Assembly: GCA_951406725.2 (NCBI GenBank)
Contig: OX597830.1
Span: 9,982,001-10,046,000, forward strand
Origin: Octopus vulgaris
Lineage: Eukaryota
Direction: 5' to 3'
DNA length: 64,000 nucleotides
The notes under the pieces were generated by a model. The model was not told the DNA's origin and did no database searches. It was given only the letters and a program-made list of their open reading frames with translations. The translations under genes and the position numbers were made by a program. Numbering within the stretch: the first letter of the stretch is position 1; every line of letters starts with the position of its first letter. This document shows positions 4,482 through 61,351 of the stretch, one piece after another.

Positions 4482-4575
<94 letters not shown>

Positions 4576-10615: not shown

Positions 10616-10654
<39 letters not shown>

Positions 10655-10661
<7 letters not shown>

Positions 10662-11105
10662 CAATTAGAGACAAAACCACTATTATGCAAATCAAACAAA
10701 GAAAGACTTAATCCAATACATAAACATTTTATATAAATTAAATAAAATTAAATTCGCCACTACAATTGTTTTGTGTCTCTTCTAAGGACATTCATCAGGT
10801 GGTATTCAGATCTTCTATTCAATTTTAAGTTATGAAGTCATAACTTCATAACTTAAAATTGAATAGAAGATCTGAATACCACCTGATGAATGTCCTTAGA
10901 AGAGACACAAACAATTGTAGTGAATTTAATTTTATTTAATTTATATAAAATTTTATGTATTGGATTAAGTCTTTCTTTGTTTGATTTGCATAATAGTGGT
11001 TTTGTCTCTAATTAATATTATATAATATTTTACTATAAAATTGGATTCAGTCCTAAATCTGATTTTTCCCTGTAAATTTGGATTTATTCCCTAATATTTA
11101 TTATT
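10655..11105. mobile_element. Fold-back element (~180-bp arms, centre ~10840) with two hammerhead motifs lacking G12
   Basis: 10655-10837 is the reverse complement of 10844-11022; motifs at 10757-10802 (-) and 10879-10922 (+): CCAC CTGATGA A TGTC..GACA C (A)AA ACAATTGT A GTG. Confidence 0.8.
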
Positions 11106-11119
11106 ATATATATATATAT

Positions 11120-11312
11120 GTAGGTCCCGGGTTGAGTCGGGGTTAACCACAGTAAATAAGGTACTCAATACATAGCAGACTAAATTAATTTATTTTATAG
11201 AAGGAGCTTCTACAGGACTAGAACTGTTTCATTCAAATGAAATCTTCAGGAAGCTCCTGAAGATTTCATCTGAATGAAACAGTTCTATTCCTGTAGAAGC
11301 TCCTTCTATAAA

Positions 11313-11317
<5 letters not shown>
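11120..11317. mobile_element. Fold-back element with back-to-back type I hammerheads
   Basis: Palindrome 11188-11317; minus 11206-11254 reads GCTTC CTGAAGA TTTCATTTGAAT GAA ACAG TTCTAGTC CTGT A GAAGC; plus copy at 11253-11300. Confidence 0.8.
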
Positions 11318-11343
<26 letters not shown>

Positions 11344-15187: not shown

Positions 15188-15338
15188 ACAGATGTATTAG
15201 TATAACGCTCAGGAATAGAAATATATATATATGTATATATTAATCAATACAAGGGTAGCAAAACATTCAATAGAATTTTTTTTCGCCACTAGCGGTCCAG
15301 TGAGAAAGAGAAAATAGGAACAGACTATATATATATAA

Positions 15339-15825
15339 TTTCAACAATATTAAGGAATGGCCCTGATAGGCTATTCGACTCACCAGAAAGAGCAGCCAAA
15401 CTCAAACTGCTAAATAGTAGTAATTCAGAAATCAAAGGAAAATCAAAAACATTTACCCTAATCATCCTTGGACAATGCATTGTTTCGACGTACTTTTTTG
15501 GCAAACCAGCCTAATTAAATTAAATTTAATTTAATCAGGTCAATCTACCACTGGCTCGTCTCATCGGCAAGGAAGCCAGGAGGAATATTTATTCCTTGCC
15601 GATGAGACGAGCCAGTGGTAGATTGACTTGATTAAATTAAATTTAATTTAATTAGGCTGGTTTGCCAAAAAGTACGTCGAAACAATGCATTGTCCAAGGA
15701 TGATTAGGGTAAATGTTTTTGATTTTCCTTTGATTTCTGAATTACTACTATTTAGCAGTTTGAGTTTGGCTGCTCTTTCTGGTGAGTCGAATAGCCTATC
15801 AGGGCCATTCTTTAATATTGTTGAA
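15339..15825. mobile_element. Near-perfect 487-bp palindrome with two hammerhead motifs (CCGATGA core)
   Basis: Arms 15339-15574 / 15592-15825; plus motif 15593-15700 TCCTTG CCGATGA GACG..CGTC GAA ACAATGCATTGT C CAAGGA; mirror copy at 15465-15573. Confidence 0.85.
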
Positions 15826-15944
15826 AAAAAAAATATATATAAAGTTAATCCAAACATGAAAACACAAAGAGAAAACACAACAACGCGAGGACGTGGAACA
15901 AATGTAGTATTATTGGACACTCAGGAAGGAAGGGAAGAAGAAGG

Positions 15945-15979
15945 GTTTTACATTTCGAGCGGAGCTCTTCGTCAGAAAC
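15945..15979 (-). ncRNA. Minimal type I hammerhead motif in a Penelope-like terminal fragment (15840-16046)
   Basis: GTTT CTGACGA A GAGC TCC GCTC GAA ATGT A AAAC. Confidence 0.7.
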
Positions 15980-16042
15980 ATATGAAAAGGAAAGATCCAG
16001 AGAAGGGAAGACGGAGGAAAAAAATCACCAACGGTACACACG

Positions 16043-16171
<129 letters not shown>

Positions 16172-21267: not shown

Positions 21268-21593
21268 GGCAAAAGAAAAATTCTAATGCCAAATATGCCG
21301 AAAAAAAGACAGAAATTGTCAATTAACCATTATGATTTATGTGTCTCGAAACAAACCGATAGAAATTTCTAAAAAATGTTAAAGAAATTTCTATCGGTTT
21401 GTTTCGAGACGCATAAATTATAATGGTTAATTGACAAATTCTGTCTCTTTTTTCGGCATACTCGGCATTAGAATTTTTCTTTTGCCCTTATATTGTAAAT
21501 TATTTATAAATTTAACCTTTAAAGGTATTTTTTGATATGCTGGCCATTGATGAAATTTTTTTTCCGAAAAAAAAAAAATTTATCCTACATTAG

Positions 21594-28919: not shown

Positions 28920-29640
28920 TATGTATTTAAAAAAATGAATAAATAAATGAATTCATGAGTGAATGTTGTTTTCACAGCGATAACGCTCTTCTCAGTACAT
29001 GAGCCGTTCCAGTTAACAAGATTTTTTGCACTTCCTGTAGGGATGGTAAGCCTGGTATCATTTTCAAATATGTTTCAGTACCTTATTTTATCATTCCTAG
29101 AGATCCTACAATCACTGGTACTGTAGTCGCCTTGAGATGCCACATTTTTTCAATTTCTATTTGCAAGTCTTTATATTTACTGATCTTGATAAATTCTTTC
29201 GCCGCCAAATTGTGATCGCAAGGAATACACATGTCAATTAATAAACACACCTTTTTTGTCTGATCTTTTATAATAATATTCGGTTTATTAGTTTTTATAG
29301 TTTTGTCGCTATGTACGGGGAAGTCCAAGAGAATCGACACATTTTCTCCCTCAGTCACAGCTTCAGGATGGTGTTTATACCATTTGTCAGCGGTTTTGAT
29401 TTTATAATGCCGATAGTGTAAATACTGGCCGACTCGGTCATATCTTGCTTTATATTCTACGGGTGCTAAGACTCTACACCCTGAGATTAGGTGGTCTATA
29501 GTTTCAAACTCATCGTTACAGAATCGGCATACCTGCTCTTGTACATTTTTGTAGGCATCTTGGGTGCGTTTGATCCAGTCTGCCTTTTCATTGTATGGGG
29601 TTCTCATCACTCCAGATCCCTTTCCAAAAATTTTCACCTT
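28920..29640 (-). mobile_element. R4/Dong-type LINE fragment: CCHC zinc knuckle and restriction-like endonuclease (ORF 29083-29637, internally deleted)
   Basis: CRFC..EFETIDHLISGC, RYDRV, KWYKHHPE, NKPNIII..K..CLLID, KISKYKDL, VPVIVGSLG. Confidence 0.9.
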
Positions 29641-30560
29641 CTTCCGTTAGGGGTGGATTTTCAATGTTTATTTTTTCTTTCCCCATTTTCCTGTAAAATG
29701 ATTTGGCATTGGATTTGAACATCTTATTTTGCTTTTAGTATTTGACTCTTCTCAAATCTGCGTATTCTGAGCTTTTGCTTGCAATGTGCCTAACACCAAC
29801 GCATTTTAATCAATGTCAACAGCTGTGAATATCTTTAGGGTTTTATGGTATTCTAAATATTTTATTTCACATCAAAAATCACACTATGCAGAAGTTTGCT
29901 TTCCTTGTGACATATTGTTTTACTAATCTAAATAATAAAATATTTTCTCCCGGTGTATAAATTCGTTTGCCCACTTAGTATAGAATAAGAAAGTGTATCT
30001 TTATTTACTTAGTAATAAATTACACATAATTTTGCTAATAATGAAATTTATGAGGACTAAATTACAATAACATAAATATGCTTTTATTCATACATTATTA
30101 AAATATAAATTTACATTACAAATCTAAAACTAAATTATATTAACAATATTCTGCTTCCTTTTGAATACATTTAACCTTTTTTATAACAAGCCGCCATTTT
30201 AAAACATTTTTCAAATTTCTGTTCATTGTTGTTTTATGGTGTACTCTCATATCGTAGACGACTATTGAAGACCATGCAACTATTTTCTGAACAACCTTCA
30301 CAGAGGATTTGTATATAGTAATCAAATTTTTTTGCTGTACATTGGCTCATTGTCACCGTAGAATCGACATTTGCTTATAGAGGTGCGCGGTGTGCCGTAT
30401 GTCGGATGGGAAAATGATATCAGAGCTGCATGAGGCGAAGCGTGTTGTTCGAAAACAGGTTGTATTGCCTTCCTCGTGTGTTGCATTCACCTCTTGCAAT
30501 TGTGAGGACAAACCCCGGTTCACTATGCCACGCGCCTTTATTCACATACACCTATACACT

Positions 30561-31067: not shown

Positions 31068-32290
31068 ATTTTTTTTTTCTAGTTTCAGCTCAGAGCTGCG
31101 GCCATGCTGATGCACCGCCGTTTTGTGCTACAATGTTATTGCGACGAACCTCGTCTAATATGTGGCACTTGGTGAAGAATGGAGTTTGATACAGCTACTC
31201 TCATTTGCACCTCTTGCCGTGAGGTAGGTTCATCTGGGATTCTTGACAGGAAGATGTCCAGCTTTGATTTAAAAACTGCTACATCTACTTTGTGCAAGTT
31301 CCTCAAACTCTTTGGGAGAATATTAAAAAGCTGTGGGCCCTTGAAACCCAGGCTGTTGCAGTAACTGGTCCTGAAGCGTGATGGCATTGCTGGGATCTTT
31401 GGCACTATGCAGTGTGGTCCCGTTCTAGCATTGGTGTAGCTTACAATGCCAAAATTTGGCACAATTCCTTCCAGGATCTTCCAGACATATATTACTGCAT
31501 ACCTCTCCCGTCTTCTCTCCAGGGAGTAGAGTCTTAGCTGTTTCAACCTTTCCCAGTAGCTGAGCTGTTGCAAAGAGACGATCTTCTTTGTGAATCTTCT
31601 CTGGATTGCTTCAAGGTCCGCTGTTAATTTTACACTGGTGGGTGACCATAGCTGTGAGCAGTAATCCAGGCGACTGAGGACGAATGTCCGCCAGAGGACC
31701 ATCATGGTTTCCTTATCTCTGGTTCTGAATGTTCTTAGGATCCACCCAGCCAGTCGTCTGCACTTTGTCGCCATCCTGGTAATGTGCACTTGGAAAGAGG
31801 TATCATCACTCATGTCGATATCCAGGTCCCTCACAGACTTAGGCTCTGGGATTGAAATTCCCTGTGGACCGGTGTATCCTATAAGTTTAATATTCAGTTT
31901 TGGATGCTGGTAGCGCAGGGCCTGGATTTTTTCAGCATTAAACTGCATATTATTATCCTCAGACCATCTTAAGATTGAGTCCAACTCCTGCTGCAGGTGT
32001 GCAACATCGCTGGGGTTCTGTATTTTCTGCGAGACTTTTGTATCGTCTGTATAGCTGGCCAGAGTGGCTATCCGGGCATTTGAGGGCATATCTGAGAGGG
32101 CCACTATAAAAAGCAGTGGTCCCAAGACAGTGCCCTGTGGAACACCGCTCACTATGTGTGTGTTCATAGAGGTGGCTCCATTAACCCCTTCTGCCTGACT
32201 CCTATCTTTCAGGAAGTCATGCAACCACACTCCAAGTTTTCCAGCTATGCCGAGGTCACGTAGTTTGTGGCATATCATAGCATAGTGCAT
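31068..32290 (-). mobile_element. 5'-truncated CR1/L2-group LINE: RT C-terminal ORF (31136-32290), short 3' UTR and A-rich tail
   Basis: SGVPQGTVLGPLLF, YTDD, W...NNMQFN, LDYCSQLWSP, YWERLKQLRLYSLERRRER; 384 aa without stops. Confidence 0.92.
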
Positions 32291-32589
32291 TAGGTAATCA
32301 TCTTATTCCAATTTCCTTCACTTTTCAATGATTAGCAGATGAGCAACTAACTTTTGATACAGACACAACACAGTTTTTTTGAGGAAAGTTTTAAGGAAAT
32401 ACCCAATAGGTTTAAATTTAATTCCGTGAAATATTCACGGGTCTCGCTACACACATATTAATGAAAACATGTGCGCACAATTTTCTCCATGCTGAATATA
32501 ATATTGCATGGAGAAGGTTGCACAACACTAAGTATTTCAAGTGCCTAATGAATATATAGTCTCCTCTCATACGATTTGTTTTTATAGCT

Positions 32590-58641: not shown

Positions 58642-59170
58642 TACAAGACAGTGGCTCTCTTGGCTTCTGATCTTAATTTATTGTACATTGTTTTGTCTTG
58701 GTATAAAAGATGGGCTACAGCAAATATTCTGCTCAATACCACAGATTTGCTTGTCAGTTGTTTGACCTTAACCAGTTGAGCATGTCCCTTAGTGGCTGAC
58801 GATATGAGCATCTCTGATCATGAGCAGAAGTAGTGGGGGAGCATCATAGCCATGTGTTGAGAGGGATTCTTTGGGGTTTGGATAATTCAACTTTGGAAAT
58901 AGGGGTGTTTTGTTCGACATCCTTAAACAACCCTTATTCAGGGATCTTTTGAGCAGGATGGGCTACTCGAACTGAAGAAAATTCTAACTGGGCGCCACCT
59001 GTAAAGTTATGCGCTGTTTATCTTGATATGAGATCACCATGTCGCGCACATATGGTTGTGATGCATGTGCCTGGTGTACCCTTATCAGACGGGTAGAAAT
59101 GACGGGTATACTGGGCTTCGTATATTTGTAACTCAGTATCACTTTGATGGCATGCACTGCTCTCTCATTC
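58642..59170. mobile_element. Copy 4 of the (ATT)n-embedded element (inverted)
   Basis: Reverse complement of 13515-14068; (AAT)n on both sides. Confidence 0.88.
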
Positions 59171-59216
<46 letters not shown>

Positions 59217-59281
59217 TTAATAATAATAATAATAATAAGAAGAAGAAGAAGAAGAAGAAGAAGAATAGTAATAAGAATAGC

Positions 59282-59324
<43 letters not shown>

Positions 59325-59369
59325 CTAGTAGTAGTAGTAGTAGTTGTTGTTGTTGTTGTCGTTGTTGCT

Positions 59370-60650
59370 ATAAGCAGAAGGCCTGAAAATTTGGGCGGTG
59401 TGGAAGTCGTCTGTATCGCCCTACCCCTACCCCAACCACAACCACGATTAACACCAATACACTACTGGTACTTAATTTATCAACCGTGAAGAGATGAAAG
59501 GCAATTTTCAACTGAGAACGTAAAGACGGACGAAATACCGTTAAGCATTTTATGAAAGGCTGCAAGCTGGCAGAATCGTTAAAACAAGGCGGCGAGGTGG
59601 CAGAATTGTTAGCACGCCGGGCGAAATGCTTAGCGGCATTCCGTCTGCCGCTGCGCTCTGAGTTCAAATTCTGCCGAGGTCGACTTTGCCTTTCATCCTT
59701 TCGGGGTCGATAAATTAAGTACTACAGCAGGAGCGGCTGTGTGGTAAGTAGCTTGCTTGCCAACCACATGGTTCCGGGTTCAGTCCACTTGTGAGTGGAT
59801 TTGGTAGACGGAAACATGAAAGAAGCCCGTCGTATATATGTATATATATGTGTATGAATGTTTCTCCCCCCATCATCGCTTGACAACCGATGCTGATGTG
59901 TTTATGTCCCCGTCACTTAGCGGTTCGGCAAAAGAGACCGATAGAATAAGTACTGGGCTTACAAAGAATAAGTCCCGGGGTCGAGTTGCTCGACTAAAGG
60001 CGGTGCTCCAGCATGGCCGCAGTCAAATGACTGAAACAAGTAAAAGAGTAAAAGAGTAAAAGAGTACTAGTTACGCACTGGGGTCGATGTAATCGACTTA
60101 ATCCCTTTGTCTGTCCTTGTTTATCCTCTCTGTGTTTGCCCCTTGTGGGTAGTAAAGAAATAGGTATCTCGTCTGCCGCTACGTTCTGAGTTCAAATTCC
60201 GCCGTGGTCGACTTTGCCATTCATGCTTTCGGGGTCGATAAATTACGTATCAGTTAAGCACTGGGGGTCGATATAATCGACTTAATCCGTTTGACTGTCC
60301 TTGTTTGTCCCCTCTGTGTTTAGCCCCTTGTGGACAATAAAGAAACAAGAATAGTTAACACAACGGACTAAATGCTTAACGGCTTGACGTATAGATTTTA
60401 AATTCCGCCAAGGTCGCCTTTAAATTTCAACATTTTAGGGTCGATAAGCAAAGTACAATTTGAGCACTCGAGTCGATGAAATCGACTCTCTGCTCCGCCC
60501 ACTCTTTACGATCTGAGTTCAAATTCCGCCAGTGTCAACTTTCTCTTTCATCGTCCCGGCATCGATAAAATTAGTACCAGGTGGACACTGGGGTCGATGT
60601 AATCAACTTATCCTCTCCCTGAAATTGCTGGCCTTGTGCCAAAATTTGAA
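59370..60650. mobile_element. Cluster of Meta-type SINEs with a nested CORE-type SINE at 59725-60062
   Basis: Host SINE starting at 59588 is split; AGTACTA duplicated at 59718-59724 and 60063-60069. Confidence 0.85.
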
Positions 60651-60746
60651 CTCATCATTATAATTATTATTTTAGTTGTTGATGTTGTTATTTTTCTTGT
60701 GGAAGTTGTTGTTGTCGTCGTCGTCGGCATCATCATTCTTCTTCTT

Positions 60747-60842
<96 letters not shown>

Positions 60843-60843
60843 T

Positions 60844-61351
60844 AGTGAGAGAGCAGTGCATGCCATCAAAGTGACACTGGGGTAAAACATACGAAGCCCA
60901 ATATACCCATCATGACTACCCGTCTGATAAAGGTACACCAGGCACATGCATCACAACCATATGTGCGCGACATGGTGATCTCATATCAAGATAAACAGCA
61001 CATGACCTTGCAGGTGGGGCCCAGTTAGAGTTTTCTTCAGGTGAAATAGCCCATCCTGCTCAAAAGGTCCCTGAATAAGGGTTGTTTAAGGATGTTGAAA
61101 GAACCACCCATGTTTCCAGAGGTGAATTATTCAAACCCCAAAGAATCCCTCTCAACACATGGCTATGATGCTCCCCCACTACTTCTGCTCGTGATCAGAG
61201 ATGCACATATCGTCAGCCACTAAGGGACATGCTCAACTGGTTAAGGTCAAACAACTGACAAGCAAATATGTGGTATTGAGCAGAATATTTGCTGTAGCCC
61301 ATCTTTTATACCAAAACAAAACAATGTACATGATAACACTTCCAATCAGTT
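60844..61351. mobile_element. Copy 5 of the (ATT)n-embedded element
   Basis: Near-identical to 13516-14022; (ATT)n flanks. Confidence 0.9.

What the first reader, a model, noticed from the sequence alone, without database searches (positions are those of the whole stretch)
15339..15825. Young 487-bp palindrome with twin hammerheads, a 12-nt palindromic stem III and an extended stem II
The ~235-bp arms differ at only a few positions. Each holds TCCTTG-CCGATGA-GACG[65 nt including AGCCAG/CTGGTT and an AT palindrome]CGTC-GAA-ACAATGCATTGT-C-CAAGGA. The fold-back junction lies 1 nt outside stem I. Any transcript contains one sense ribozyme and its full antisense, so ribozyme folding competes with a long hairpin that could silence it or be an ADAR/Dicer substrate (inference).
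Basis: partly seen in the sequence, partly recalled or inferred. Interest (0 to 1): 0.75.

Follow-up and report, generated by a model that had tools for sequence, protein, structure and literature searches.

The report
Head-to-head hammerhead retrozyme insertion
This mirror-image stretch is one of hundreds of copies of a small non-coding jumping repeat with a predicted self-cutting RNA motif, and it landed as two shortened copies back to back, a common outcome for this family and a layout already described for Penelope-type retrotransposons, so the palindrome is likely a by-product of insertion and not a switch.

Summary
The palindrome and both hammerhead motifs are real. The layout is routine for the family: 31 of 85 loci sampled without regard to score are head to head, and 26 of those 31 have the tail on one side only. 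That is the published footprint of Penelope-like elements; tandem arrays make the family an animal retrozyme by sequence criteria. In a read-through RNA the antisense arm comes first on either strand, so this copy is predicted to be silenced and is probably dead. Cleavage, expression, editing, the helper element and the junction in raw reads are untested or unresolved. The scan has noted this pattern before in this and other genomes.

The parts
15239..15825 (.). Whole insertion: tail + left arm + junction + right arm
15239..15325 (-). Tail: first ~88 nt of the next monomer, on the left end only (long 3' end)
15326..15339 (-). Internal (TA)n tract that separates monomers; marks the short 3' end
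15340..15595 (-). Left arm: 5'-truncated monomer, positions 218-472 of the L010 reference copy
15465..15573 (-). Type I hammerhead motif, C3 at 15567, predicted cut after 15471
15575..15595 (.). Junction; holds the element's own 14-nt hairpin (15582-15595) and a 4-nt overlap between the arms
15592..15825 (+). Right arm: 5'-truncated monomer, positions 239-472, no tail (short 3' end)
15593..15700 (+). Type I hammerhead motif, C3 at 15599, core CCGAUGA, predicted cut after 15694
15616..15667 (+). Extended stem II arm, rich in G-U pairs, capped by an AT hairpin of variable length
15682..15693 (+). 12-nt self-complementary stem III; pair 3:10 is A-U here, U-A and G-C in other subfamilies
15695..15825 (+). 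131-nt structured 3' region with conserved hairpins, inferred docking site for the reverse transcriptase
15221..15238 (.). Left target (TA)n tract
15826..15841 (.). Right target A8 + (TA)n tract

Best explanation
The locus is a single insertion of two 5'-truncated copies of a 460-490-bp non-coding, hammerhead-bearing repeat, set head to head in a (TA)n tract with a tail on one end only, and likely made by a borrowed Penelope-type enzyme. Shown: family, copy layout, two fixed 3' ends, variable 5' ends, TA targets, tandem arrays, conserved RNA pairing. Inferred: the helper's GIY-YIG nuclease cuts both strands of a (TA)n target; each end primes reverse transcription on the element's RNA, one at the internal TA tract (short end) and one ~100 nt further on (tail end); both cDNAs run through the ribozyme on an uncut, multimeric or re-circularised RNA, stop just 5' of it, and are joined through a few complementary bases at the element's own small hairpin. 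In source arrays the ribozyme probably cuts best as a dimer through its 12-nt palindrome and releases monomer RNA. This copy lacks the 5' half of the monomer and any read-through RNA would bury the ribozyme in a 235-bp hairpin, so it is probably inert.
For: 315 exact copies of the 16-nt core in G000 against 1 control. Of 103 non-redundant loci, 101 hold the family; 37 are head to head and 0 tail to tail; 179 of 209 fragments end at one of two 3' sites. In the 85 loci sampled by pattern, 31 are head to head, with the tail on one side in 26, both in 1, neither in 4. In 16 of 33 one-tailed head-to-head loci the untailed arm holds 12 or more bases absent from the tailed arm, which needs a second priming on the RNA (in 5 of the 16 the tailed arm is only a tail). 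18 of 40 junctions overlap by 1-7 nt. No 5' end lies within 7 nt of the cut, 0 of 47 in the range -60 to +110. Tandem monomers at 474-490 bp spacing. Compensatory changes in stems I and II and in stem III. Inverted 5'-truncated copy with one-sided tail is described for PLEs (bioRxiv 2021.04.23.441226; PMC3846280); a PLE protein cuts and extends both strands and starts internally at two sites (PMC11167929). An intact RT + GIY-YIG family with TA flanks and two 3' ends exists in G000.
Against: The helper is not identified: the 781-aa family shares no nucleotide similarity with the monomer beyond 13 nt, and its RT match is just under the Pfam cut-off. The window itself is among the 17 of 33 loci where the untailed arm is fully contained in the tailed arm, so snap-back copying would also fit here. 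Arms are closer to each other than to any other sampled copy in only 10 of 21 pairs (3 ties, 8 lower). 19 of 40 junctions have 1-47 extra bases and no overlap. The dimer is an energy estimate only, and the covarying pair also lies within the monomer's 4-bp stem. PMC11167929 reports initiation without homology to the target, whereas the short end here sits on a TA tract. In bioRxiv 10.64898/2026.07.22.740005, 8 of 9 predicted retrozymes did not cleave in vitro.
Confidence: 0.8

Rival explanations
1. Same element, but the mirror half is made by snap-back: one cDNA folds at the 14-nt hairpin, primes on itself, and the copy is attached to the other target end at the internal TA tract.
For: All 3 twin-hammerhead palindromes found have their centre at this hairpin region; the right arm is contained in the left; PMC3846280 reads junction palindromes as self-priming (passage).
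Against: Cannot explain the 16 of 33 loci whose untailed arm holds sequence absent from the tailed arm; most head-to-head junctions lie elsewhere in the monomer.
Confidence: 0.1
2. The palindrome is a selected regulatory device: an antisense-gated ribozyme or a source of dsRNA, edited RNA or small RNAs that silence the family.
For: A read-through RNA is predicted to fold into one hairpin of -418 kcal/mol; family sequence is present in contigs of 4 runs guessed to be RNA, with 4 opposite-strand joints; PLE copies give small RNAs in rotifers (PMC3846280).
Against: The layout is the family's ordinary insertion product, the centres differ between copies, and the copy is young, with nothing to show conservation at this site. 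Incidental dsRNA remains possible but would not be a function.
Confidence: 0.05
3. The palindrome moves as a unit, as a fold-back or MITE-like DNA element.
For: A second locus (L016, C5) has the same breakpoints, 218 and 239, and the same tail end.
Against: L016 belongs to another subfamily (93-94% to the window, 97-98% to L010) and has the hairpin in the other orientation at its centre; the ends are asymmetric, and only 3 such loci were found.
Confidence: 0.02
4. Assembly or fold-back read artefact.
For: No contig of 4 public runs spans the junction; the listed pieces stop at 15587.
Against: The arms differ at 3 places, the ends follow the family's short/long rule, the junction has an 11-nt loss at a 4-nt repeat, and 31 of 85 loci share the layout. 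The runs are other samples and contigs break at repeats, so the blank proves nothing.
Confidence: 0.03

Closest known systems
Animal non-LTR retrozymes (Cervera and de la Pena 2020, PMC7229834, passages; Li et al., bioRxiv 10.64898/2026.07.22.740005, parts 1-3 of 5)
   Same: Non-coding, low-GC repeat with a type I hammerhead in each unit; monomers, dimers and short arrays; co-occurs with intact PLEs.
   Different: Monomer of 460-490 bp is above the 150-450 bp given in PMC7229834 (within the 51-972 bp of Li et al.); stem II carries a ~65-nt arm; stem III is a 12-nt palindrome, not a 1-2-bp stem with a tetraloop; head-to-head, one-tailed insertions were not found in print for retrozymes (0 papers). 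Circular RNA not shown.
EN+ Penelope-like element insertions with inverted 5'-truncated pLTR and tail (Craig et al., bioRxiv 2021.04.23.441226, passages; Arkhipova et al. 2013, PMC3846280, passages; Frangieh et al. 2024, PMC11167929, parts 1-2 of 4)
   Same: Head-to-head truncated copies, tail on one end, microhomology at the junction, AT-rich or microsatellite targets, hammerhead ~130 nt upstream of the first 3' end, copies not truncated at the ribozyme cut.
   Different: No RT or endonuclease frame; tail is ~100 nt, not 30-40; the parent pLTR was not found.
PLE hammerheads with palindromic helix III (Cervera and de la Pena 2014, PMC4209133, parts 1-2 of 4)
   Same: Type I topology, self-complementary helix III, predicted dimer; that paper also notes pairs of motifs 100-700 bp apart on opposite strands in Schistosoma.
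   Different: Longer palindrome able to form a 4-bp stem alone; long stem II arm; U4C core in many copies (54 of the 84 motifs with a recognisable core).

Membership tests
Type I hammerhead ribozyme | Core C3 Y4 G5 A6 N7 G8 A9, G12 A13 A14, U16.1 H17 in type I order | tested here: met
   Both arms; 84 of 117 sites with the 16-nt motif have the upstream core, the other 33 being truncated, deleted, mutated or unrelated.
Type I hammerhead ribozyme | Stems I, II, III with compensatory change | tested here: met
   2 of 6 stem I pairs and 3 of 3 stem II pairs change on both sides in 34 copies picked from the 84; stem III pair 3:10 occurs as A-U, U-A and G-C. Copies are related, so these are few independent events.
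Type I hammerhead ribozyme | Match to an Rfam hammerhead model | tested here: not met
   No family at the gathering score; no hammerhead family listed up to E 10. The long stem II arm may be the cause (inference).
Type I hammerhead ribozyme | Loop 1-loop 2 tertiary contact | not tested
   Not examined; stem II has an internal loop after 4 bp that could serve.
Type I hammerhead ribozyme | Self-cleavage | not testable with these tools
   Active monomer fold is 2.7 kcal/mol above the minimum and ~0.5% of the ensemble; estimated dimer is below two misfolded monomers in 9 of 9 copies, by 0.9-12.3 kcal/mol.
Animal non-LTR retrozyme | Tandem units each with a complete type I hammerhead | tested here: met
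   Family level: L068, L079, L086, L088 and 474-bp arrays of a 74%-identical subfamily. The window copy itself is not tandem.
Animal non-LTR retrozyme | No protein coding, low GC | tested here: met
   The one candidate frame from the stem III ATG is shorter than 20 codons in 86 of 147 copies; GC 0.37 over 15472-15693.
Animal non-LTR retrozyme | Expressed as linear and circular monomer RNA | not testable with these tools
   Only contigs of runs guessed to be RNA were available; they cannot show ends, strand or circles.
EN+ Penelope-like element (autonomous) | ORF with RT and GIY-YIG domains | tested here: not met
   No coding frame in the monomer.
PLE-mobilised non-autonomous element | Inverted 5'-truncated copy and one-sided tail | tested here: met
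   26 of 31 head-to-head loci have one tail; 0 tail-to-tail of 101.
PLE-mobilised non-autonomous element | Sequence shared with the pLTR of an autonomous PLE | tested here: inconclusive
   One intact family tested, 5 copies, no similarity; other PLE families in G000 were not examined.
PLE-mobilised non-autonomous element | Target-site duplication | not testable with these tools
   Both ends lie in (TA)n; no empty allele available.

The most novel reading that the evidence does not exclude
This family is a retrozyme whose hammerhead is a dimer-gated switch (misfolded alone, active when two units pair through a covarying 12-nt palindrome) and whose RNA is copied onto both ends of one DNA break by a Penelope enzyme, priming at an internal TA tract and at a tail site, with the front edge of the ribozyme acting as a preferred stop and joining point. 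Twin-hammerhead palindromes would then be a direct readout of how PLE inversions form, testable with a 480-nt RNA and the intact 781-aa enzyme of the same genome.
Probability: 0.35. Interest if true: 0.55.

Novelty: new member of a known kind. Interest (0 to 1): 0.3.

Why it matters
The locus itself is ordinary. The family matters modestly: how PLEs form inverted, one-tailed insertions and whether they mobilise retrozymes are open questions, and this small non-coding family obeys the PLE end rule and supplies many independent junctions. Its hammerhead, with a long stem II arm and a covarying 12-nt palindrome, is a structural variant that Rfam misses and a clean test case for dimer-dependent cleavage. 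Head-to-head copies are also a possible incidental source of long dsRNA.

Tried and rejected
Rfam: nothing at the gathering score; only miRNA-type hairpin models below threshold, caused by the palindrome. A first 34-nt pattern was too specific (7 matches). Genomic trace of cleavage: 0 of 47 5' ends within 7 nt of the cut, so no support for a cut linear template. Small ORF from the stem III ATG (51 codons in this subfamily): not conserved. A GT..AG stretch at about 15710-15756 looked like an intron; no such joint was seen in 4 runs guessed to be RNA, left open. First pair count used a structure misplaced by some columns; repeated correctly. RNAalifold on alignment A1 recovers stem I but otherwise gives the misfolded core pairing, not the hammerhead. 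Helper search: one intact PLE family, no shared sequence. Public runs: no RNA holder listed as such; junction not covered in 4 runs; A>G was the commonest change against copy L012 in all 4 RNA-guess runs but cannot be told from copy variation. One-frame translation of the left flank was uninformative. Literature searches: 'retrozyme' + 'head-to-head' 0 papers; 'retrozyme' + 'octopus', 'hammerhead ribozyme' + 'cephalopod' and 'Penelope' + 'twin priming' + 'inverted' listed nothing that describes this family (listings only, except passages of two papers); PMC13282606 has no mention of ribozymes in its main text. No supplements were read; those of PMC7229834 and PMC4209133 may list such motifs.

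Full report
Observation. The arms 15340-15574 and 15592-15825 are reverse complements at 232 of 234 aligned bases with one 1-base gap, 17 nt apart. Each carries a full type I hammerhead layout with predicted cuts after 15694 (+) and 15471 (-); the same descriptor found 0 motifs in the reversed and 0 in the complemented window. Rfam does not recognise it. The genome G000 is an animal-type assembly of 2.8 Gb; its repeat landscape looks cephalopod-like to me (recalled, not tested).

The unit is a repeat family. A DNA search gave 1963 first-look candidates, 40 of them scored, with matches of 91-100%; the 16-nt core occurs 315 times against 1 control. A real tandem copy (L010) defines a 472-nt monomer plus a ~14-nt TA tract; 18 near-full monomers match it over 453-479 nt. 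The window holds positions 218-472 on the left, continued through the TA tract into the first ~88 nt of the next monomer (to about 15239), and positions 239-472 on the right with no such tail. Both ends lie in (TA)n.

The layout is the family's norm. I dropped 20 of the first 123 loci as duplicates of the same place. Of the remaining 103, 101 hold the family; 37 are head to head and none tail to tail; of 209 fragments, 125 end at the monomer end, 54 at the tail end and 30 elsewhere, 19 of these at about position 445, probably where alignments to divergent subfamilies stop. In the loci drawn from the first 100 of the 315 pattern matches (85 with family hits, mapped to subfamily-matched references), 31 are head to head: tail on one side 26, both 1, neither 4; some of these arms are only a tail. 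An inverted 5'-truncated copy with a one-sided tail is the described footprint of Penelope-like elements (bioRxiv 2021.04.23.441226, passages; PMC3846280, passages), and opposite-strand hammerhead pairs 100-700 bp apart were noted in 2014 (PMC4209133, parts 1-2 of 4). Tandem units with a type I hammerhead define animal retrozymes (PMC7229834, passages), proposed to be non-autonomous PLE derivatives (bioRxiv 10.64898/2026.07.22.740005, parts 1-3 of 5).

The ribozyme fold is conserved at family level. In 34 copies chosen from the 84 with a recognisable core, 94.9% of cells pair; 2 of 6 stem I pairs and 3 of 3 stem II pairs change on both sides; slid controls give 25-49%. Those copies were selected on an invariant stem III, so I sampled it separately: of the first 100 of 250 matches to a gapped pattern, 74 have the window's palindrome, 18 a second perfect palindrome with pair 3:10 swapped to U-A, and 8 a single change (my count); a third palindrome with G-C at that pair has 246 exact matches against 0 control and sits in 474-bp arrays about 74% identical to the reference monomer. 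The 131 nt after the cut hold conserved hairpins with one compensatory pair in 19 copies, and a full monomer folds at z = -5.2. Alone, the motif prefers a misfold in which the core pairs with stem III; the active form is 2.7 kcal/mol higher, about 0.5% of the ensemble. A rough sum puts the double hammerhead below two misfolded monomers in 9 of 9 copies. This suggests dimer-dependent cleavage but does not show it; the covarying pair also lies in the monomer's 4-bp stem.

Mechanism. A purified PLE protein cuts and extends both strands of AT-rich DNA, starts at two internal RNA sites that match the genomic ends, and does not need ribozyme cleavage (PMC11167929, parts 1-2 of 4). The family fits: two fixed 3' ends; no 5' end within 7 nt of the cut (0 of 47); and in 16 of 33 one-tailed head-to-head loci the untailed arm holds sequence that the tailed arm lacks, which snap-back cannot supply. 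The window is one of the other 17, so snap-back is not excluded for this copy. Of 40 junctions, 18 overlap by 1-7 nt, 3 are flush and 19 have extra bases. 5' ends are somewhat enriched in the 30 nt before the core: 17 of 68 against 6.8 expected, p = 0.04 after scanning correction. Three loci in G000 match a pattern for twin cores folded back within 30 nt of stem I (window, C5, C2), each with a different centre, so the palindrome is rebuilt at each insertion. Whether the peak marks a transcription start or a polymerase stop is unknown.

Helper. G000 holds a young family with a 781-aa frame matching RVT_1 (E 1e-6, just under the cut-off) and GIY-YIG (E 3e-6). Five copies end in (TA)n at two sites ~35 nt apart, 2 short and 3 long, the short one at an internal TA tract, downstream of a hammerhead-like motif. 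It shares this design but no sequence with the monomer, so it is a candidate only.

Consequence for this copy. On either strand the antisense arm is transcribed first, and every predicted prefix from 15339 that includes the ribozyme pairs it fully with that arm. The 5' half of the monomer is missing. The copy is therefore probably inert; incidental dsRNA is possible if the site is transcribed, which I could not test. The junction was not covered in 4 public runs; the asymmetric, rule-following ends and 3 arm differences argue against an artefact.

Verdict. A new retrozyme-type family member showing the known PLE insertion footprint. I reached this reading before the look-ups; earlier scan notes report the same pattern in this and other genomes, which is not independent support. 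Interest 0.3.

Noticed in passing
window 15834-16045 (-): End piece of another, very abundant repeat abutting the right target tract, with a minimal hammerhead motif (C3 at 15975, predicted cut after 15949). No similarity to the 781-aa PLE copies.
   Followed up: partly
window 10652-11024, 11181-11325, 21301-21452, 2353-2849, 58682-61330: Further inverted-repeat inserts, several flanked by (TA)n; probably head-to-head insertions of other families. My descriptor found no canonical hammerhead in them.
   Followed up: no
window 25317-25285 (-): Another small hammerhead-like motif with an 8-nt near-palindromic stem III.
   Followed up: no
L174-L178 (e.g. L175 1306-3648; motif at about 4537-4570): Young intact RT + GIY-YIG family with many 781-aa frames in G000, a U3-A8-type hammerhead-like motif and two 3' ends at TA tracts.
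   Followed up: partly
L179, L180 (C1:35672000, C8:9455200): Arrays of up to 5 units of the G-C stem III subfamily, capped by an inverted copy; the best candidates for active source loci.
   Followed up: partly
L117 2105-2165; L186 1630-1760: Head-to-head junctions at or near the front edge of the hammerhead in other subfamilies.
   Followed up: partly
L071, L106, L111, L044, L097, L100: Copies with deletions at the base of stem II that damage the hammerhead, several in one subfamily.
   Followed up: no
window 31139-32302 (-) and 29086-29646 (-): LINE-type reverse transcriptase fragments (RVT_1 E 4e-12; zf-RVT E 0.007).
   Followed up: no
L004 2063-2720 (+): Open frame resembling a PIF1-like helicase piece of a Helitron (label recalled, not tested).
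   Followed up: no
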